From: a virus
Strand: one strand, 5' to 3'
IMG/VR virus record: IMGVR_UViG_3300027963_000043
Location: 32,001 to 96,000 of that record
Length of the DNA stretch: 64,000 nt
Part shown: positions 1,516-64,000 of the stretch, one piece after another
Layout of the letters: every line of letters begins with the position of its first letter
How positions within the stretch are numbered: position 1 is the stretch's first letter
Program-made: the position numbers and the translations under genes
Notes under the pieces: model-generated
What the model was told of the DNA's origin: nothing
Databases searched by the model: none
What the model saw: the letters and a program-made list of their open reading frames with translations, nothing else

Positions 1516-4002
1516 ATGACAGGTTTAGCTTATATTCAAATTTATAATTCCGCTTCTGGAAGTTTTTTCGAAAATAAAAATCTTGGCGTTGAAGCTGTTA
1601 AATTTTTTAACGAAGATAGACTTAAATTTAATAATACAGTAGAAATAGATAAATTACTTACAACTCGTATTTCTATTGGAAAAAATTCTTCTGGTGATGC
1701 AAAATATAGCGTAAATGTAGGAATTAATAATTCTTCAATTTTAACTAAAACTGGATTAGCAAATTTTTATGGTCCAGTCAATTTTGGACTTCTTAATAGT
1801 TCAACTGATTCTACTAGAGCTTACAATATTGGTGGACAAAATACTATATTAGATTCAGATCAAGCAATGATTTTTGGTATTAATAACCAATACTCTGGAA
1901 TAGTAAGGTCTTATGCTTTAGGTGGAAATAATATAATTGAATCTGGAACAGAAAATGTTATAATTGGTAGAGATAATGCTTTACGCAATGATAATCAAAC
2001 TTCTCTTATTTTAGGATTTTATAATCAAAATATTGAAAAAAATAAAGGTTCTTTAATAGTTGGTAATTCAAATACAGAAATTTTAAATTCAAATAATATT
2101 AATTTGATTGGTAATTATAATTCAATTTTCGGTTCTAAAAATACCATAATTTTTGGAGAAGCAAATAGCGCAATCAGTAATGATTCATCCTATGTTTATG
2201 GTGGAAATAATAATATAACAACAGGTTATCAAGATGTAGTTTTTGGAAAATCAAATATTTTAGCGTCTGGTATTTCTAATTTAGTTTTTGGTTTGGGAAA
2301 TAGTTCTTCATATGGAAATTCTGAAAATATATTTGGTAGATCAAATTCTTCAATTGGTAATTTAAATTTTATAAATGGAATACAAAATACTGTCAAAAGT
2401 AGATATTCAGAAGAGAATGAAGTTTTGGGAAGACTAAATATTTTAAACAAAGCATCAAATAATATTATTGTTGGAAAATCAAATAGATCATCTGAAGATG
2501 CATATCTTAATTTATACGGAACTGGATTAGGACAATCATTTATTGACGAACAAGTTTCTGGAGCAGCATATGCTGGAATTTTTGGTAATCAAAATTATAC
2601 ATCTAGATCTTTTTATTCTTATATTTTTGGTAATAACAATATTGTAGATTTTAATTTGAATGGCTATACCATAGGTGAAAACAATCGCGTAATGGTATCG
2701 CAAGGCTCCTATATTTTTGGAAAAGGCAATCAACTTTCTGGTAAAAATAATTTCTTAATAGGATTTAATAACACTATTAGATCTGGAGACTCTGATGTAA
2801 TAGTAATTGGTCAATACTATACAGCAAAAGATGATTTTGAAAAAAATAAAATAATAATAAATTATCAAAATAATCGTATAGAAGTTATCAATACTGGAAT
2901 TAAACTTACTTCTAGCACTTCACCAACTATAAATGGAGATAAGATATTAACTACTCCAGATTTAATATCTATTGAAAATTCTATAAATGATCAGCGTATA
3001 GCAAATACAATTAATTATTTTTCGTTAACTGGAGAATTATATACTAATCCATTAAATCTTTATGATACAAAAATAGATCATCTTGCAAATAAAGTTAACG
3101 TAATAAGTGGTGCTTACACTCAAACCATATTGGATTCTGTTGCATTACAATTTGATATTTCTGGAGTAACTGGAATGGGATTGACAATAGGAAAATTAAG
3201 CTTTAAAATTCCATCTAATACAATTTTTACGAGAGCTAGAAAATCATTAGACTATTCTGGATTGTTTAATATTTCAGAGATTTATTATCAAAATAAAAAC
3301 TATAACATGGGCATATTCCATGATAAAAGTTCTAAACAATGGTTAGTTGGTGATTTAAATTCTGACGAATATTATTTCTTCAGCACCCAAAGCAATCCAA
3401 ATATATTTGGTGGTTCCAGTGGACAAATTGGAGACTTGCGACAAGAGTTGGGTGCAACTAGATTTAGAGCAACTGGTACATACGCAGGAGCTGCAGGTAT
3501 TACATATTATAGTGGTATGGAGAGCACTATAAATGGAAAGAAATATGGACCTCTTTTTGTATATAATACAAAAGAAATTAGCGTAAATCAAATTTATACA
3601 TCAATTGAACTTCCAAAAAATCTTGGAGATTTTTCTTATATTCCATCAACAGTATACGAATCTGAAGATAATAATTTTAATTTATTCTTTGGTAAACCGT
3701 ATGCATTAACCAATGGATTTAAGAAAAAGAACCAAAATAATCAATATGTTGATTATCAATGGTTAATAGTAAATAATCTTTTAAGCAATAGATCTGGCGA
3801 ACTTTATTTTGGAGATAATTTAACCTCTACTTCTCAAACTGCTGATTTTTCATTCAAAACAACTGGTACTAATTTAGCTTATACTGGATTTGGTAATGGA
3901 AGAACACCAGCTATAACTTTAAGAATGGATGGCAGCAGATATTCATTAGTTAAATCTTATGTTCCAAATTATGGACAAGTTTATTTTCCATTTTATTATT
4001 AA
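1516..4002 (+). CDS. Virion fibre/adhesin with G-x-x-N beta-roll repeats
   Basis: 828 aa; about 20 repeats of (I/V/F)G-x-x-N at roughly 15-aa spacing, like YadA/Hep_Hag head repeats. Confidence 0.6.
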   Translation: MTGLAYIQIYNSASGSFFENKNLGVEAVKFFNEDRLKFNNTVEIDKLLTTRISIGKNSSGDAKYSVNVGINNSSILTKTGLANFYGPVNFGLLNSSTDSTRAYNIGGQNTILDSDQAMIFGINNQYSGIVRSYALGGNNIIESGTENVIIGRDNALRNDNQTSLILGFYNQNIEKNKGSLIVGNSNTEILNSNNINLIGNYNSIFGSKNTIIFGEANSAISNDSSYVYGGNNNITTGYQDVVFGKSNILASGISNLVFGLGNSSSYGNSENIFGRSNSSIGNLNFINGIQNTVKSRYSEENEVLGRLNILNKASNNIIVGKSNRSSEDAYLNLYGTGLGQSFIDEQVSGAAYAGIFGNQNYTSRSFYSYIFGNNNIVDFNLNGYTIGENNRVMVSQGSYIFGKGNQLSGKNNFLIGFNNTIRSGDSDVIVIGQYYTAKDDFEKNKIIINYQNNRIEVINTGIKLTSSTSPTINGDKILTTPDLISIENSINDQRIANTINYFSLTGELYTNPLNLYDTKIDHLANKVNVISGAYTQTILDSVALQFDISGVTGMGLTIGKLSFKIPSNTIFTRARKSLDYSGLFNISEIYYQNKNYNMGIFHDKSSKQWLVGDLNSDEYYFFSTQSNPNIFGGSSGQIGDLRQELGATRFRATGTYAGAAGITYYSGMESTINGKKYGPLFVYNTKEISVNQIYTSIELPKNLGDFSYIPSTVYESEDNNFNLFFGKPYALTNGFKKKNQNNQYVDYQWLIVNNLLSNRSGELYFGDNLTSTSQTADFSFKTTGTNLAYTGFGNGRTPAITLRMDGSRYSLVKSYVPNYGQVYFPFYY

Positions 4003-5929: not shown

Positions 5930-8551
5930 GTGGCAAATATATTTAAAGCGAAAACTCTTGTGGGTCGCACGGGAATATTTTCTCACGAAGTAATTGCTCC
6001 AAATCTTGTTTATAATACTGGTTATCAAAATATAGATGGATTAAAAGATTTTACAATAAAACCTACTGTTGGTACAATTCCAGTTTTATTAAGTGGAGAT
6101 ATTCCATATGTTCAAACCAATTCATATTTCTATGTTGATGCCACTAGAAAAGATTCATATATTGAAAATGGAAATATTTTATATCCATATAAAACTTTAA
6201 GTAGCGCTTACAATGCAGCAAAAAATATTGCATATTTTCACAATCCAACTTATATAACGCTTCTTAGCCCAATAGCTGAAAATTTAACTATAAATAAAGG
6301 ATATATTAATTTAGTAGGAAATAATACAAATAAAAATGATCCAATTAGAATAACTGGCTCACTTGTTTTTGCAGCCACAGGTGGAACCGCAACAGATAAT
6401 AATTTTTCAATAGCTGGGTTAGGAATAACGGCCACTTCAAATAATAAATGTATATTATTTTCTGGAAATAACCCTCAAAGATTGTTTATTCAAGATTGTT
6501 GGTTGATAGCAAAAGATAATGGAACTTGTTTATATTCAAATAATACAAATACAACTTCAAGATTGCAAGGAGATATATTAAAACTTAGTCCAGAAGGAGT
6601 AAATACAACAGCAATTGATATAGTAAGTGGAACATCTTCGATTTCTTTTGCTGAGACTAGTAGTTCTGCAAGTGTTTTAGCTTACGTTAGAAATAATAGT
6701 ACTTTAAATATAAGTAACTCTCAAATAGAAACAACTGGAGAAAAAGCTTTTCAAGTTGAAAACGCTGCTAGATTAACTTTATTAAATAGTGTGCTAACAA
6801 ATACAGCGAATCCTTCGACTGGAATATTTTTAAAAGATGCACTTTCTACGGCAGTAGTAGTTGGTTCAGCAATTTCTGTTCCAGCAAACGCTAATAGTTA
6901 TGCTATAAATGGAGTAGATTATTCTTATCTTTTTTATAAAAATCTTTATTTTAGTATAGATGCTGCTGGCCAAAGCACAGAATCAAAAATTGGAAATAAT
7001 GTTAATAAAAATTTAATTAATTCATATGATCCAGTAGTTTATAGTATAGGTGATCAAACTATCTCTGGAGTTAAAACTTTTGATGTATTTCCAATTGTTA
7101 GCGGAAATAAATTAATAACAGGATTAGATCTTAGTTCTTATCTTACTTCTTCTAGCGCCAGTTCTACTTATTCTACCATAACAAACCTTGCTTCAACTGG
7201 CTCAACTCTTGATACGAAAATTAACAATGTTAGCGGATATTTTACTGGAACGAACGCAACATTTACTACGAATCTTTTTTCGACTGGCTCAACTCTTGAT
7301 ACGAAAATTAACAATGTTAGCGGATATTTTACTGGAACGAACGCAACATTTACTACGAATCTTTTTTCGACTGGATCGACTCTTGATACGAAAATTAACA
7401 ATGTTAGCGGATATTTTACTGGAACGAACGCAACATTTACTACGAATCTTTTTTCGACTGGATCGACTCTTGATACTAAAATAAATAATCTAAGTGGTTA
7501 TGTAAATTCTTATGATAGCAATATTGTTTTTACTACTGGAAATCAAACAATAGCTGGCACTAAACAATTTTCAGGGCTTTATATTAGTGGAGTAGGACTA
7601 ACTCCAGGAATTTATGTTAATACAAAAGACAATCAAATTATTACTGGAGCTAAAACATTTGTTACTTCTGGAATATTTTCTCTTTCTGGTGCAAATCCTT
7701 TGGTATTACCAAATAATCCTCTTTCAATAGTTGGAAGTGGAAATACCTATCTTCAACTTAATATTCAAAATAGAGCCACTGGTAATACATCGACTGCAGA
7801 TTTAGTTATTACAGCCAATAACGGAACAGATAGTAGCAACTTTATTAATCTTGGTATAAATAATTCTGGATACAGCGATCCAGCATTTACTAATGGTGGA
7901 TCATATGATGGTTATCTATTTGTTAATGGTGGAAGTTTAGATATTGGAACTCAAACAGCGAATACACACATAGAGTTTCATCTTGGAGGCACAACCATTG
8001 ATAAAACTGTAGCAAGATTCAGTAATTCTGGATTAAATATTATAACTGGAAATTTAGTTGTTAATAATAGCGGAATATTTGGAGGCGTAAATATAAATGA
8101 CGCGGATGCAATGGATATATCTGGTGTAGCTATAACTTTAATAAATAGCACAGTTACTTCAAACTATCCAATTTCTGGTTCATCAATATTAGGTCAAAGT
8201 GGAGTATTCTTATCTGGAATAGATTTAAAAAATTCTAAATTAATTAATGCTACTCCAGATCTTTTAAATGTTTCAGCAAACTTTAATATAACAGGAACTC
8301 AAAATAGTAGAGTAATCCTTGCTAATTCACCAACTATAATAACTGGATCAATTGTTAGTGGCAATCCAATTGGATTTAATACTTCAATAATTCAAACTAG
8401 TTCTGGACAAGTTTTAATTACTGGTATTGGATCTAATGTTATCGTTAGTAGTTATAATAATCAATTTAGAACAGCAGCACAATACGCAACAATTTCAATT
8501 CTTCATACAGGAAACGATGGATACATAATGTATGGAAATACTAGCACATGA
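5930..8551 (+). CDS. Tail fibre/spike: beta-helix domain, 29-aa tandem stalk, QxIxGxKxF fibre repeats
   Basis: 873 aa, GTG start with AAAGGA upstream. YFYVD...NGNILYPYKTLSSAY motif precedes a beta-helix-like region; four QxIxGxKxF repeats; stalk repeats. Confidence 0.7.
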   Translation: MANIFKAKTLVGRTGIFSHEVIAPNLVYNTGYQNIDGLKDFTIKPTVGTIPVLLSGDIPYVQTNSYFYVDATRKDSYIENGNILYPYKTLSSAYNAAKNIAYFHNPTYITLLSPIAENLTINKGYINLVGNNTNKNDPIRITGSLVFAATGGTATDNNFSIAGLGITATSNNKCILFSGNNPQRLFIQDCWLIAKDNGTCLYSNNTNTTSRLQGDILKLSPEGVNTTAIDIVSGTSSISFAETSSSASVLAYVRNNSTLNISNSQIETTGEKAFQVENAARLTLLNSVLTNTANPSTGIFLKDALSTAVVVGSAISVPANANSYAINGVDYSYLFYKNLYFSIDAAGQSTESKIGNNVNKNLINSYDPVVYSIGDQTISGVKTFDVFPIVSGNKLITGLDLSSYLTSSSASSTYSTITNLASTGSTLDTKINNVSGYFTGTNATFTTNLFSTGSTLDTKINNVSGYFTGTNATFTTNLFSTGSTLDTKINNVSGYFTGTNATFTTNLFSTGSTLDTKINNLSGYVNSYDSNIVFTTGNQTIAGTKQFSGLYISGVGLTPGIYVNTKDNQIITGAKTFVTSGIFSLSGANPLVLPNNPLSIVGSGNTYLQLNIQNRATGNTSTADLVITANNGTDSSNFINLGINNSGYSDPAFTNGGSYDGYLFVNGGSLDIGTQTANTHIEFHLGGTTIDKTVARFSNSGLNIITGNLVVNNSGIFGGVNINDADAMDISGVAITLINSTVTSNYPISGSSILGQSGVFLSGIDLKNSKLINATPDLLNVSANFNITGTQNSRVILANSPTIITGSIVSGNPIGFNTSIIQTSSGQVLITGIGSNVIVSSYNNQFRTAAQYATISILHTGNDGYIMYGNTST
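7196..7476 (+). repeat. 87-bp coding tandem repeat (3 full copies plus a partial one)
   Basis: Units start at 7196, 7283, 7370 and 7457 and are near-identical at DNA level; each encodes 29 aa (STGSTLDTKINNVSGYFTGTNATFTTNLF). Confidence 0.95.
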
Positions 8552-9450
8552 TAGTCTTGCCATCAACTTCTGCTGGTTTTATAAGTAGCAATAAAGCTTT
8601 TCCTTATCTTCCTAGATCTATAAGAGATAATAATTCTTTATATCCTACTAATCAATTTATAGTTTTACCTACTGAAGGTGGAGTAGCTAAATGGACAGAA
8701 ACTCCTCCAAATGGTTGGAGTCAATATTCACCATATTATAATGTATTTTTAAAATTTTATTTAAAATCAGATGAGAGTGCTGAAAGTATACCAGCTGGAG
8801 GAGGAAATATTCATTGTTTAAAAGCTGCAGGAATTGGCTCACGATTAGGCCTTGGAAGAGAAAGAAATATTACAAAAAATCCTATAGGCACAACAAATCT
8901 CGCTAATGATTGGAGTTTGTATAATATAGTAGCTAGTTCTGTTTCGATTACTACTCAAACTTATGTTGATTTTGGATGTTTTTATAGAGTAACTAGTAAT
9001 GACCCAATGAGATCATTAAATTTTGGAGCAATTGCTATAAATTTTTCAAGATCTACACCTGTTCTTTCTAATAGCTATTTAAATTACTCAATAATACATG
9101 GTGGTGGAGTTAATCTTCTTGGAAATAATTCTACTTATACATATTTTAATACATATGATGTAGCTAAAACTTATGAAGCATATAATCAATGGATTGGGTC
9201 AGCATTTATTAAGTTTAAAAAACTTGACGAAATAAACCAAAGTTCAGTATTTAATCAATGGCAATTTTTAAGTTATAGAGTTATAATTCCAACATTTGTA
9301 GATACTCCACAAGACGATGGAGCTACTGGTAAAGCACAGACCTGTACCCTTAGACTATGCTTTTGTGAAAATAATAGTTATCTTGATGATGGTTCTGGTT
9401 TAAATACTGGGTCTATTCAATTTTTATATCCATTTTTAAGTTTGAGCTAA
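8548..9450 (+). CDS. Hypothetical virion protein, possible carbohydrate-binding jelly-roll
   Basis: ATGA-coupled to the fibre gene; aromatic-rich beta pattern (NGWSQY, NDWSLY, QWQFLSY). Fold call is tentative. Confidence 0.4.
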   Translation: MIVLPSTSAGFISSNKAFPYLPRSIRDNNSLYPTNQFIVLPTEGGVAKWTETPPNGWSQYSPYYNVFLKFYLKSDESAESIPAGGGNIHCLKAAGIGSRLGLGRERNITKNPIGTTNLANDWSLYNIVASSVSITTQTYVDFGCFYRVTSNDPMRSLNFGAIAINFSRSTPVLSNSYLNYSIIHGGGVNLLGNNSTYTYFNTYDVAKTYEAYNQWIGSAFIKFKKLDEINQSSVFNQWQFLSYRVIIPTFVDTPQDDGATGKAQTCTLRLCFCENNSYLDDGSGLNTGSIQFLYPFLSLS

Positions 9451-62701: not shown

Positions 62702-62724
62702 GCGAATTATATAAAAAAGAATAA

Positions 62725-63112
62725 TGGACCCGAGAGGAATTGAACCTCTGTCTTTTAAAAATCTAAATTAAAATACTACAAGTTTAGTTCTTTTTGTTTT
62801 TAGCTCTATATAGATAAAGAACAAACATACTTAGCGATTTTATTTTTAATATTGAATAAAATAAGAATAAAAAAACTTATTATACTCAAACATCTAATTA
62901 CGCAACTATCCAATAGATGTATCATGGTAGTCACGCTGTAGAACTTAGGCTACAGAAGCGGTCATCTCAACTAGAGAAGCTCTTGCAGAGATATGACCTT
63001 TATATTTTGCTGTTTTGGCAGTTAATATAAGTGAAACTTTTTAAGGAGTCCTCGATTCAACCTCCACTTGCATTCTAATTCATTTCTTTAAAATCGAAAC
63101 CAGTACGGGCCC
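62725..63112 (-). ncRNA. ssrA: tmRNA (transfer-messenger RNA), 388 nt
   Basis: 5' GGGCCCG-TACTGGTTTCGA pairs with 3' CGGGTCC-A (G3:U70 alanine determinant, A73 discriminator, CCA not encoded). T-arm AGAGG-TTCAATT-CCTCT; internal tag ORF present. Confidence 0.95.
62945..63019 (-). other. tmRNA tag reading frame: (A)AKTAKYKGHISARASLVEMTASVA*
   Basis: Resume context attaactGCC; 24 codons to TAA. Confidence 0.8.
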
Positions 63113-63134
63113 ATTGAGAAAGAACTAACTAATC

Positions 63135-63140
63135 TTACAC
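63135..63140 (-). promoter_or_regulatory. GTGTAA putative late-promoter motif upstream of the tmRNA
   Basis: 22 nt before tmRNA G1 at 63112. Confidence 0.55.
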
Positions 63141-63141
63141 A

Positions 63142-63351
63142 TTATAAAGCTTTTAACAGTTTTTGGCAATCTTTTTTATAAACAAAATTAAACTTAATTC
63201 TTGATCCATTTATATCTGAAATTAATTGGGGTATAGCAATACATGGATACTGATCTGGCTTATCATAAATATTCTCATTAGAAATATTATAATACTTTAC
63301 GCATTTACTAGCGTAAACTGACCATCTGGCTTTATTTTTTATAATTTCCAT
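63142..63351 (-). CDS. Hypothetical protein
   Basis: 69-aa ORF with its own sigma70-like promoter. Confidence 0.6.
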   Translation of the reverse strand: MEIIKNKARWSVYASKCVKYYNISNENIYDKPDQYPCIAIPQLISDINGSRIKFNFVYKKDCQKLLKAL

Positions 63352-63359
63352 TTCTACTT

Positions 63360-63388
63360 ATTATAAATAAAATTTGACAAAAGTGCAA
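63360..63388 (-). promoter_or_regulatory. sigma70-like promoter
   Basis: TTGCAC-17-TATAAT, 8 nt before ATG 63351. Confidence 0.7.
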
Positions 63389-63402
63389 ATTTAATATAAT
63401 AT
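63374..63402 (+). promoter_or_regulatory. sigma70-like promoter for the putative ncRNA
   Basis: TTGACA-17-TAATAT; predicted start about 63409-63411. Confidence 0.65.
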
Positions 63403-63410
63403 AAATTAAC

Positions 63411-63737
63411 ATAGTTCCCAATTAGAGCAGTTTGTTGATGTCAAACAATCAACTATCAATCCCTGAGATAGCAATGTCATAAGGGCTGACAACTATTAAA
63501 ACCTTCATTTGTACATAATATGGCTAAAGAAGGAAATGTAGCTATAGGCATCGCAGAATGTAGTGATCGAAGCTACCTCTGATCAATAAGTGCGATGGCC
63601 CTTTTACCGCTGAGATCGCGGTAAAATTTGGAGTCAAAAGAAAAGTTGGATTGATAATACTCAACTTCAGATATATAAAATCTGGAGGTAAAGCCCTTTT
63701 GGATATCAAAGAAAAGTTAAATAATTCAGGAAACTAT
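63411..63737 (+). ncRNA. Candidate unclassified structured RNA, ~327 nt
   Basis: No long ORF; ends pair (atagttccc / ggaaactat, 8 of 9); at least six internal stems, a GCAA tetraloop, crossing helices; about 36% GC by hand count. Confidence 0.6.
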
Positions 63738-63772
63738 ATTAATATCAAACTTAATTCTTATAGTATTTATTC

Positions 63773-63778
63773 GTGTAA
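63773..63778 (+). promoter_or_regulatory. GTGTAA putative late-promoter motif
   Basis: 15 nt before ATG 63794. Confidence 0.55.
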
Positions 63779-63793
63779 TTTATAATACATATT

Positions 63794-64000
63794 ATGTTTA
63801 AATATATATTAGGATTATCTGCATTTATTTTAGCTTCGTGTGCTGCATTTTTTTCAATCAAAGGAATAGCTCTTCTTTTTGCGGCTAGCTTTTGGAGCGT
63901 TGGGATAATGGCTGGAAGCTTAGAGATAGCTAAATTAGTAACTGCAAGTTATCTATATAGATGCTGGTATTCAGTTCATGATTTATTGAAGAAATATATG
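63794..64000 (+). CDS. Membrane protein, 3'-truncated
   Basis: MFKYILGLSAFILASCAAFFSIKGIALLFAASFWSVGIMAGSLEIAKLVTASYLYRCW... runs off the window; two hydrophobic helices. Confidence 0.75.
   Translation, partial: MFKYILGLSAFILASCAAFFSIKGIALLFAASFWSVGIMAGSLEIAKLVTASYLYRCWYSVHDLLKKYM

What the first reader, a model, noticed from the sequence alone, without database searches (positions are those of the whole stretch)
63411..63737. Unclassified ~327-nt structured RNA with a probable pseudoknot, next to the tmRNA
Seen: the longest ORF-free stretch apart from the tmRNA. It starts about 8 nt after a sigma70 -10 element and is about 36% GC by hand count, whereas other spacers are nearly all A/T. The ends pair (63411-19 with 63729-37). 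Stems: gttgat/atcaac; ccct..gata-GCAA-tgtc..aggg; ccttc/gaagg; a perfect 9-bp ttttaccgc/gcggtaaaa; agttg/caact stacked on tcagat/atctgg; tttg/caaa. The helices gtagct(63538)/agctac(63571) and catcgca(63549)/tgcgatg(63591) cross, which implies a pseudoknot. G-U pairs and the GNRA loop favour the + strand. I recognise no RNase P, SRP, group I/II intron, T-box or cobalamin signature. Established: large phage ncRNAs of unknown function (GOLLD, ROOL) occur near tRNA loci. Inference: a new phage ncRNA class, perhaps part of a translation-control locus with the tmRNA.
Basis: partly seen in the sequence, partly recalled or inferred. Interest (0 to 1): 0.78.

Follow-up and report, generated by a model that had tools for sequence, protein, structure and literature searches.

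The report
New knotted RNA gene of lake phages
This gene-free gap in an uncultured lake phage is a separately transcribed gene for a roughly 311-base non-coding RNA whose tightly knotted fold is kept in three diverged phage lineages; it belongs to no catalogued RNA family, and a duplicated, exposed purine-rich segment is the best clue to its unknown job.

Summary
The feature is real and new. Window 63409-63719 (+) is a stand-alone ncRNA gene behind an invariant TTGACA-17-TAnnnT promoter.

- **Family:** I collected 74 distinct homologues in three clades. Clade A is 85-95% identical to the window; B and C are far more distant.
- **Fold:** On a covariance-model alignment, 45 of 67 nested pairs change on both sides (95.7% paired; 0 of 500 shuffles reach this).
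- **Novelty:** No Rfam family matches any clade. Two conserved patterns found no copy in 185,579 prokaryote genomes.
- **Expression:** Lake metatranscriptome contigs from three studies hold the RNA.
The GCAA "tetraloop" stem and the terminal pairing outside the conserved core both fail.

Two purine-rich tracts, and the C-rich strands before them, are duplicated and changed in step in all three clades.

Function is unknown. My best guess (about one in three) is an early, trans-acting decoy or platform offering two identical single-stranded sites to an RNA-binding factor. tmRNA linkage holds in clades A and B, not C.

The scan already reported this family from other genomes; I agree and extend it.

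The parts
63374..63402 (+). Sigma-70-type promoter (TTGACA, 17 nt, TAATAT); predicted start 7 nt downstream at about 63409
   Evidence: TTGACA is present in all homologues whose flank is held, in all three clades.
63409..63719 (+). Conserved ncRNA core, 311 nt
   Evidence: Conservation starts at ACAUAG and ends at GUUA, and the flanks diverge. The covariance model matches positions 1-311 in all 74 members.
63414..63428 (+). P0 hairpin, 63414-17 with 63425-28
   Evidence: UA/CG/UG and CG/UG/UA pair types; 100% paired (helix 1).
63434..63453 (+). H1 hairpin, 63434-39 with 63448-53
   Evidence: All 6 pairs change on both sides across clades (helix 2). Clade B has a different hairpin at the same place.
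63454..63656 (+). P-LR1, long-range 9-bp helix, 63454-62 with 63648-56; it encloses the central domains and crosses the small hairpin H6
   Evidence: A-U to G-C and C-G to U-A within clade A. The sequence is fully rewritten but still complementary in clades B and C (helices 3-4).
63467..63497 (+). P3 hairpin: outer stem 63467-71/63493-97, inner stem 63475-78/63488-91, loop 63479-87
   Evidence: Inner pair UA 39 / CG 35; outer pair AU 69 / GC 5 (helices 5-6).
63482..63697 (+). PK-A pseudoknot: P3 loop 63482-87 with 63692-97 (strand X2)
   Evidence: Seven sequence versions in 74 members, each with 6-8 consecutive pairs. G-C to A-U at two pairs in clade B.
63502..63533 (+). H3 hairpin, 63502-06 with 63529-33, with a conserved loop
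   Evidence: The closing pair takes CG, UA, AU and GC. The stem is rewritten in clade C.
63512..63562 (+). PK-C, candidate loop-to-junction pairing, 63512-16 with 63558-62
   Evidence: AU, GU and GC at 63513/63561, but A-C in 3 clade B members, and the pairing is unclear in clade C. Tentative.
63538..63576 (+). PK-B pseudoknot: 63538-43 with 63571-76, the latter lying in the loop of P5b
   Evidence: Three complementary versions, one per clade. One mismatch in 6 of 9 clade B and in 3 of 5 clade C members.
63549..63597 (+). P5a helix, 63549-55 with 63591-97
   Evidence: UA to CG and CG to GC across clades (helix 8).
63564..63585 (+). P5b hairpin, 63564-69 with 63580-85
   Evidence: AU 50 / GC 22; three compensated pairs between clades A and B (helix 9).
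63597..63635 (+). H5 hairpin (63602-10/63618-26) and its outer helix (strand X1 63597-601 with the head of tract 1, 63630-35)
   Evidence: 8 of 9 H5 pairs change on both sides (helix 11). In the outer helix, G-C becomes A-U at 63597/63635, with wobbles elsewhere.
63629..63647 (+). Purine-rich tract 1 (N-GGAGUY, then AAAAGAAAAGU); the A-run 63636-44 is unpaired in the model
   Evidence: Invariant A-run in 74 members. The N and Y positions always equal those of tract 2.
63665..63687 (+). H7 hairpin, 63665-72 with 63680-87
   Evidence: 6 of 8 pairs change on both sides (helix 12).
63700..63718 (+). Purine-rich tract 2 (N-GGAUAUY, then AAAGAAAAGUU), unpaired in the model, at the 3' end of the core
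63142..63351 (-). c0, a conserved 69-aa orphan protein gene between the ncRNA and the tmRNA (neighbour; link unproven)
   Evidence: Found in 41 loci as 30 variants. 68 unnamed database relatives. AF2 pLDDT 89.9, with no fold match.
62722..63112 (-). Phage tmRNA, divergent neighbour
   Evidence: Rfam RF00023, 111.8 bits; ARAGORN.

Best explanation
Shown:
- 63409-63719 (+) is a stand-alone gene for a ~311-nt non-coding RNA.
- It is transcribed from its own host-type (sigma-70 consensus) promoter.
- It folds into one compact body: eleven covarying helices tied together by a 9-bp long-range helix and two covariation-supported pseudoknots, plus a tentative third.

Inferred, at about one chance in three:
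- The RNA acts in trans, early in infection, as a decoy or assembly platform.
- The knotted body serves to hold out two copies of one single-stranded purine-rich site (N-GGA..UY followed by AAA(A)GAAAAGU).
- Two copies, or one oligomer, of an RNA-binding factor bind these sites and are titrated or recruited.
- Candidates are a host factor that reads A-rich single strands (Hfq distal face, ribosomal protein S1) or a phage protein.

The part 'real new structured ncRNA gene' I hold at about 0.95. The confidence below is for the mechanism.
For: Gene and fold:
- The promoter is conserved in all three clades.
- The conservation boundaries are sharp.
- The only ORF is broken in relatives.
- 98% of pairs hold, with 14 doubly changed pairs, among 60 close relatives.
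- 95.7% of pairs hold, with 45 of 67 doubly changed pairs, among 74 members of three clades. No shuffle of 500 reaches this, and slid controls reach only 0.08 against a score of 0.33.
- The pseudoknots are rewritten but stay complementary.

Stand-alone, not a leader:
- The downstream gene differs between loci and mostly converges on the RNA.

Tract argument:
- The A-run is invariant in 74 members, although the clades lie about 0.9-1.0 substitutions per site apart.
- It is unpaired in the supported model.
- The two copies agree at both variable positions in every member: U/U, G/G and A/A before GGA; C/C or U/U before the A-run.
- Both tracts contain three consecutive A-R-N triplets, the Hfq distal-face motif (my own knowledge of Hfq).

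Other support:
- A host-type promoter is consistent with early expression, whereas many phage ORFs carry a different upstream motif.
- Contigs of lake metatranscriptomes from three studies hold 63427-63726. This fits transcription but does not prove it.
Against: - No binder is known, and the host is unknown.
- There are only two tract copies, whereas known sponge RNAs carry five or more.
- The GGAGUY head of tract 1 is base-paired (63630-35 with 63597-601), so only the A-run is free.
- The in-step changes rest on few independent events. The U/U members of clade A form one clade. My rough chance estimate is about 0.01.
- Those changes could instead come from homogenisation of a duplicated module, or from both copies pairing with shared strands.
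- The record encodes no Hfq.
- The adjacent protein c0 stays with the tmRNA, not with the RNA, in clade C.
Confidence: 0.33

Rival explanations
1. Two-state switch. The duplicated C-rich strands X1 (63597-601) and X2 (63692-96) compete for the P3 loop and for the G-rich heads of the tracts. The RNA would flip between a state with PK-A plus the outer H5 helix and a state with loop:X1, exposing or hiding a tract in response to a ligand, a protein or temperature.
For: - X1 and X2 are twins in every clade: GGCCC/AGCCC in A, AGUCU/AGUCU in B, AGCCA/AGCCU in C.
- The P3 loop can pair with X1 over 4-5 contiguous pairs in all 74 members.
- X1's two C-to-U changes in clade B mirror the loop's G-to-A changes, although X1's proven partner did not change.
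Against: - Loop:X2 is always the better helix (6 of 6 Watson-Crick pairs).
- U-G wobbles make X1's changes neutral for its known partner, so hitch-hiking or gene conversion would explain them.
- No expression platform or regulated gene is evident.
Confidence: 0.15
2. Accessory of the phage tmRNA: an RNA that works with the neighbouring tmRNA in trans-translation or ribosome control, for example by helping it to be processed, loaded or aimed.
For: - The RNA is divergent and promoter-to-promoter with a tmRNA in nearly all clade A loci and in clade B. This holds although the tmRNA tag and the RNA sequence have both diverged.
- The record has a tmRNA but no SmpB.
Against: - In clade C the tmRNA is 7-10 kb away.
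- One clade A lineage has the RNA without a nearby tmRNA.
- The best RNA-tmRNA duplexes are no stronger than with shuffled tmRNA, and they fall at non-homologous tmRNA sites in clades A and B.
- The region is a general hot spot for small RNA genes and mobile endonucleases.
Confidence: 0.15
3. Self-assembling RNA-only particle, as shown for ROOL and GOLLD: several copies join through exposed self-complementary segments.
For: - The fold is ornate and knotted, sits in a phage and lies next to tRNA-like genes.
- The head of tract 2 (GAUAUC, or GAUAUU in some members) is self-complementary in every clade.
- ROOL and GOLLD form multimers by cryo-EM (bioRxiv 10.1101/2024.12.08.627333, listed; abstract only read).
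Against: - At 311 nt it is about half the size of those RNAs.
- No Rfam match to them.
- A 6-nt palindrome is weak evidence.
- No other conserved palindromic loop: UGUACA in the H3 loop is lost in part of clade B.
Confidence: 0.1
4. Ribozyme: a self-cleaving or RNA-processing catalyst of a new class.
For: - There is a nearly invariant 67-nt double-knotted core (63535-63601), invariant apart from one compensated pair and three variable unpaired positions in 60 clade A members.
- No terminator follows the gene, so the 3' end may be made by processing.
Against: - No match to any ribozyme family in Rfam, including RNase P, twister, hammerhead, HDV-like and group I.
- The order of strands in the core differs from the HDV fold (my own comparison).
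- No conserved cleavage-site signature was seen.
Confidence: 0.07
5. Cis-acting element: a long leader, or an antisense read-through transcript, that controls the gene next to it.
For: - In the window a 320-aa gene starts 75 nt downstream on the same strand.
- In clade C nrdA starts about 137 nt downstream on the same strand.
- One metatranscriptome contig runs 357 nt past the core.
Against: - In most clade A loci the next gene is convergent, and the downstream genes belong to different families.
- Conservation stops sharply at 63719.
- The 320-aa gene has its own upstream GTGTAAT motif.
Confidence: 0.05

Closest known systems
ROOL (RF03087) and GOLLD (RF01998) RNAs
   Same: Large, intricately folded orphan ncRNAs of phages and prophages. 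They have their own promoters, are often found beside tRNA-type genes, were found by comparative genomics, and have unknown function.
   Different: No covariance-model match. This RNA is about half their size. It has a different architecture (one enclosing long-range helix plus two covariation-supported pseudoknots and a tentative third, with a duplicated tract module). It has been seen so far only in one group of AT-rich lake phages.
Protein-sponge RNAs CrcZ (Hfq/Crc) and CsrB/RsmZ (CsrA)
   Same: Works-like comparison only: repeated single-stranded A-rich or GGA-containing motifs displayed on a structured RNA to titrate an RNA-binding protein.
   Different: Those RNAs carry 5-20 motif copies on simple hairpins and are bacterial. 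Here there are two copies on a knotted scaffold in a phage. Binding is untested, and there is no sequence or model similarity.
tmRNA (RF00023)
   Same: Neighbour gene; similar length; rich in pseudoknots; host-type promoter.
   Different: No tRNA-like domain and no tag reading frame. ARAGORN and Rfam call only the neighbour.
Bacterial RNase P RNA
   Same: Similar size, long-range helices, and a GGAGGUAAAGCCC stretch that recalls the CR-I region (my own recollection).
   Different: No Rfam hit even at E = 10. The look-alike stretch sits near the 3' end and is the 3' strand of H7 plus PK-A, not a P4 strand.
Stable RNAs C and D of the phage T4 tRNA cluster (from my own knowledge, not tested here)
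   Same: Phage-encoded stable small RNAs of unknown function located with tRNA-type genes.
   Different: They are much smaller (about 120-140 nt). No similarity was examined.

Membership tests
Any Rfam 15 family (4227 covariance models) | Match at the family's gathering score, or at least E <= 1 with permissive filters | tested here: not met
   Window: only the neighbouring tmRNA at the gathering score, and only Termite-leu at E 1.3 in 63100-64000. Clade B: only its tmRNA. Clade C: Alpha_RBS at E 0.68 on the wrong strand.
Bacterial RNase P RNA (RF00010, RF00011) | Covariance-model match, with conserved P4 strands in the 5'-CR-I ... CR-V-3' order | tested here: not met
   No hit at E <= 10. The CR-I-like stretch at 63684-96 pairs as H7 and PK-A.
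ROOL / GOLLD | Covariance-model match; length over 500 nt | tested here: not met
   No hit. The core is 311 nt.
ROOL / GOLLD | Phage or prophage location near tRNA-type genes | tested here: met
   The source is a virus record. The tmRNA lies 297 nt away.
tmRNA | tRNA-like acceptor/T-arm domain and a tag reading frame | tested here: not met
   ARAGORN and RF00023 call 62722-63112 only.
Group I intron | Covariance-model match; insertion in a host gene with flanking exons | tested here: not met
   No hit. It has its own promoter and lies between genes.
Sponge RNAs of CsrA or Hfq (CsrB/RsmZ, CrcZ) | Many repeated single-stranded binding motifs | tested here: inconclusive
   There are two conserved copies of one tract, each with GGA and three A-R-N triplets, far fewer than in the named RNAs.
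Sponge RNAs of CsrA or Hfq (CsrB/RsmZ, CrcZ) | Demonstrated binding and titration of the protein | not testable with these tools
   Needs gel shifts or pull-downs. The host is unknown.
Riboswitch or other cis-regulatory leader | Fixed position in the 5' UTR of the regulated gene, with an expression platform | tested here: not met
   The downstream gene varies and is mostly convergent in clade A. No terminator or start-codon-masking helix follows. Clade C lies upstream of nrdA, so a clade-specific role is not excluded.
Small-protein gene | Open frame kept in relatives, with a coding substitution pattern | tested here: not met
   The 20-codon ORF has a stop at codon 4 in several relatives. Substitutions are paired across helices instead.

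The most novel reading that the evidence does not exclude
The RNA is a phage-made two-state device built from a duplicated module (C-rich strand, then G-rich head, then purine run). The twin C-rich strands compete for one hairpin loop and for the heads of the tracts. Capture of a host translation or RNA-chaperone factor, or a cellular signal, then flips which purine tract is exposed. That would give the phage an early RNA-only sensor and decoy of a kind not described before.
Probability: 0.15. Interest if true: 0.85.

Novelty: categorically new. Interest (0 to 1): 0.72.

Why it matters
Large, strongly covarying RNAs with no family assignment are rare, and each has so far led to new biology or new RNA architecture (riboswitches, OLE, ROOL and GOLLD).

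This one is small enough (311 nt) for chemical probing and cryo-EM. It packs at least three long-range interactions into one domain. It is present, and apparently expressed, in lake communities, and it sits in abundant AT-rich lake phages whose biology is almost unknown.

The duplicated tract that changes in step gives a concrete handle for finding its partner. If that partner is a host RNA chaperone or ribosomal factor, this would be a new way for phages to take over host RNA metabolism.

Tried and rejected
- **Cultured phages:** blastn of the region against 50,697 phage records found no match. The DnaE protein has no close cultured relative, all hits being under 60% identity, so no host could be named.
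- **Prokaryote genomes:** two exact-pattern scans of 185,579 genomes (a 21-mer of the core; the twin-tract pattern) found nothing. Exact patterns only, so distant copies could be missed.
- **Failed search routes:** the pattern built on the twin AAUGUAG motif gave only chance hits outside the family. The search for related loci with the 471-aa upstream protein found nothing.
- **Targets of the tracts:** the record has no exact complement of the 13-nt core and one with a single mismatch.
- **Tract-tmRNA duplexes:** -8.5 to -12.3 kcal/mol, within the shuffled range. The GGAGUC/GACUCC matches fall at non-homologous tmRNA sites in clades A and B.
- **c0 as a clue:** no Pfam or PHROG family. No PDB fold match by Foldseek (best E 0.5) or by VIA-align (best Z 4.3).
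- **Accessory proteins:** the record (87% complete) has no SmpB, Hfq, Ro60/TROVE or RtcB. A fragment cannot show absence.
- **Translation starts:** no Shine-Dalgarno-like or tract-like consensus upstream of the phage's ORFs. The tracts are therefore not obvious mimics of its own translation starts.
- **Read cover:** parts of the laid stretch had no contig cover (63128-63391 and beyond 63744). I draw nothing from them. Contig ends at 63427/8 in three runs are not transcript ends.
- **Prior publication:** supplements of the IMG/VR candidate-RNA survey (PMC10690425) are not held. I could not check whether part of this RNA is among its 8,495 unnamed candidates.
- **Coding reading:** rejected (see membership test).
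rejected.

Full report
**Where it lies.** The window is bases 32001-96000 of a 133.6-kb IMG/VR virus record, about 30% G+C and 87% complete. It carries tail genes, a DnaE-type polymerase and many glycosyltransferases. A tmRNA lies at 62722-63112 on the minus strand (Rfam 111.8 bits; ARAGORN). A 69-codon ORF (c0, 63142-63351, minus) follows it. The finding then starts at 63409 on the plus strand, and a 320-aa membrane-protein gene starts at 63794.

- G+C rises to 0.365-0.38 against 0.25-0.29 in the flanks.
- The consensus scan finds TTGACA-17-TAATAT at 63374-63402.
- Both strands fold better than shuffles (z -3.35 and -3.84), so energy alone does not give the strand.
- Rfam gives nothing at gathering thresholds, and only a chance-level Termite-leu row (E 1.3) with permissive filters.

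**Relatives, clade A.**
- The downstream 320-aa protein led to 21 related viral loci. Eight of them hold the RNA at 90-95% identity.
- Exact core words found 35 and 46 IMG/VR loci. A gapped pattern found 51 true copies among 93 metagenome stretches.
- In total, 96 full-length copies reduce to 60 distinct sequences of 308-315 nt (alignment A3).
- Conservation begins exactly at ACAUAG, 7 nt after the -10 box, and ends at GUUA (63719). Both flanks diverge, but the TTGACA box is present in every copy whose flank is held.
- The only ORF (20 codons, 63520-82) has TAA at codon 4 in several copies.

**Relatives, clades B and C.**
- Close copies leave the core invariant, so I looked for distant ones through the neighbour. 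A profile of c0 found relatives at 38-56% identity.
- Their short contigs each have a roughly 400-nt ORF-free gap upstream. That gap holds a version of the RNA only 69% identical over 267 alignable bases.
- A pattern made of the two purine tracts, which are shared, then found ten more viral loci. These fall into that clade B and a third clade C.
- All have TTGACA promoters and start with ACAUAG, apart from one AAAUAG.
- A covariance model built on clade A (R1) matches all 74 distinct members end to end. Scores are 357-399 bits in A, 166-189 in C and 122-137 in B.
- Tree distances are about 0.9 (A-C) and 1.0 (A-B) substitutions per site.
- Rfam has nothing for B or C either.
- Each locus, and the window's own genome, has one copy.

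**The fold.**
- Within clade A alone, my hand-built model (72 pairs, pseudoknots included) is 98.0% paired with 14 doubly changed pairs. No shuffle of 500 reaches this, and slid controls pair at 29-50%.
- On the three-clade alignment A5, the 67 nested pairs are 95.7% paired and 45 change on both sides. The covariation score is 0.332, against 0.139 for shuffles and at most 0.077 for slid partners. This alignment was fitted to the model, which favours the model; the clade A count was not fitted.
- The nested helices are P0, H1, P3 (outer and inner), H3, P5a, P5b, H5 with an outer extension, and H7.
- A 9-bp long-range helix, P-LR1 (63454-62 with 63648-56), encloses the central domains. It has two compensated pairs inside clade A. 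It is completely rewritten, yet complementary, in B and C (helices 3-4).
- PK-A joins the P3 loop (63482-87) to 63692-97. There are seven sequence versions, each with 6-8 consecutive pairs.
- PK-B joins 63538-43 to 63571-76, inside the loop of P5b and across P5a. Each clade has its own complementary version, with one mismatch in some B and C members.
- PK-C (63512-16 with 63558-62) shows AU, GU and GC, but also A-C, and is unclear in clade C. I call it tentative.
- Invariant G-U pairs (for example 63598/63634 in all 74) and the promoter fix the plus strand.

- The GCAA is not a tetraloop. Covariation (UA 39, CG 35) pairs 63475 with 63491, so UGUC pairs with GACA. The AGGG then lies in the loop that makes PK-A.
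- The end pairing with 63729-37 lies beyond the conserved core. Only about half of the clade A lineages have 5 or more complementary bases there, at shifting positions.

**Context.**
- In clade A the RNA is almost always divergent from a tmRNA, 70-300 nt away, usually with c0 between them. Clade B is the same, although its tmRNA encodes a different tag.
- In clade C the tmRNA and a c0-like ORF lie 7-10 kb from the RNA, which there sits about 137 nt upstream of nrdA.
- One clade A lineage has the RNA and c0 but no tmRNA nearby. Others have the RNA and tmRNA without c0.
- Downstream genes vary (an unknown 171-aa protein, a lipoprotein-like gene, nrdB/nrdA, endonucleases) and mostly converge on the RNA. 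The RNA is therefore its own transcription unit.
- No intrinsic terminator follows it.
- Contigs from lake and freshwater metatranscriptomes of three studies hold 63427-63726, and four hold the tmRNA. DNA carry-over cannot be excluded, and one contig runs on past the core.

**The duplicated module.**
- Two tracts, 63629-47 and 63700-18, share the pattern N-GGA-(G or UA)-U-Y followed by AAA(A)GAAAAGU.
- The A-run never varies in 74 members and is unpaired in the model.
- N is U/U in all 60 clade A members, G/G in all 9 of clade B and A/A in all 5 of clade C. Y is C/C in 58 members and U/U in 16. The two copies never disagree.
- The U/U members of clade A form one clade (support 0.86), so the independent events are few. 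My rough estimate of chance agreement is about 0.01.
- The C-rich strands ahead of the tracts are twins too (X1 63597-601, X2 63692-96). X2 makes PK-A, and X1 pairs with the head of tract 1. X1 could also pair with the P3 loop over 4-5 bp in every member, and its two C-to-U changes in clade B mirror the loop's changes.
- I found no complementary target in the phage record, and no better-than-chance pairing with the tmRNA.

**What it most likely does.**
- Shown: a stand-alone, promoter-driven, compactly knotted ncRNA gene of a new family.
- Inferred: the host-type promoter suggests early expression, whereas many phage ORFs carry a different GTGTAAT motif. The invariant, exposed, duplicated purine runs look like binding sites.
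- I therefore favour a trans-acting decoy or platform for an RNA-binding factor, at about one chance in three. Hfq-type or S1-type host proteins are the first candidates, because each tract has three A-R-N triplets (my own knowledge).
- Rivals are a two-state switch built on the twin strands, a tmRNA accessory, an RNA-only multimer like ROOL and GOLLD, a ribozyme, and a cis element. Each has stated tests.
- c0 is a real, conserved orphan protein with a confident but unmatched fold. Its linkage follows the tmRNA rather than the RNA.

**Comparison and novelty.**
- The closest things in kind are ROOL and GOLLD (ornate orphan phage RNAs). In proposed working, the closest are the sponge RNAs CrcZ and CsrB. 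It is a member of none (see membership tests).
- The family is absent from 50,697 phage records at blastn sensitivity. Two conserved patterns found no copy in 185,579 prokaryote genomes.
- Earlier agents of this scan reported the same family from five other genomes as a new double-knotted RNA with twin tracts. I confirm that independently.
- I add the two distant clades that make the pseudoknots testable, the corrected P3 stem, the twin C-rich strands, the break of tmRNA linkage in clade C, and the metatranscriptome contigs.

Noticed in passing
window 63773-63779 and genome-wide (G000): GTGTAA(T) is about 45-fold enriched 10-20 nt upstream of the ATG of ORFs of 120 aa or more in the 133.6-kb record, for example before the 320-aa gene at 63794. 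It is probably a phage-specific promoter or leader motif. The ncRNA and tmRNA use TTGACA/TAnnnT promoters instead.
   Followed up: partly
window 63142-63351 (-): The 69-aa ORF c0 between the ncRNA and the tmRNA is a real conserved orphan protein, with 30 variants in the loci and 68 unnamed database relatives. The AF2 model has pLDDT 89.9 (beta-alpha-beta-beta-alpha) and no Pfam, PHROG or PDB match.
   Followed up: yes
window 62722-63112 (-) and window 63141-63169: The phage tmRNA has its own TTGCCA-17-TATAAT promoter and an unusual 24-residue tag ending in SVA. Clade B phages carry a tmRNA with a different tag (ending LIAA). No SmpB is found in the record.
   Followed up: partly
L003:4866-4954, L008:3532-3621, L014:4621-4710 and other related loci: Related phage contigs that lack the tmRNA at this position carry an 89-90-nt tRNA-Ser that ARAGORN reads with anticodon ACT, an unusual anticodon.
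   Followed up: no
L193:1291-1605 with 1744-3996; L190:8992-9306 with 6603-8855: In clade C the ncRNA lies about 137 nt upstream of the ribonucleotide reductase large-subunit gene on the same strand. In clade A the nrdA/nrdB genes are often nearby but convergent.
   Followed up: partly
L024:1475-2026 and equivalents upstream of the tmRNA: A 183-aa HNH/endonuclease VII-like gene (PHROG 3322) and variable inserts of up to 3.6 kb between the tmRNA and the ncRNA suggest a hot spot for mobile endonucleases.
   Followed up: no
window 63535-63541 and 63556-63562: A second small internal repeat, AAUGUAG, occurs twice in the invariant core. The first copy is part of PK-B and the second is the candidate partner of the H3 loop (PK-C).
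   Followed up: partly
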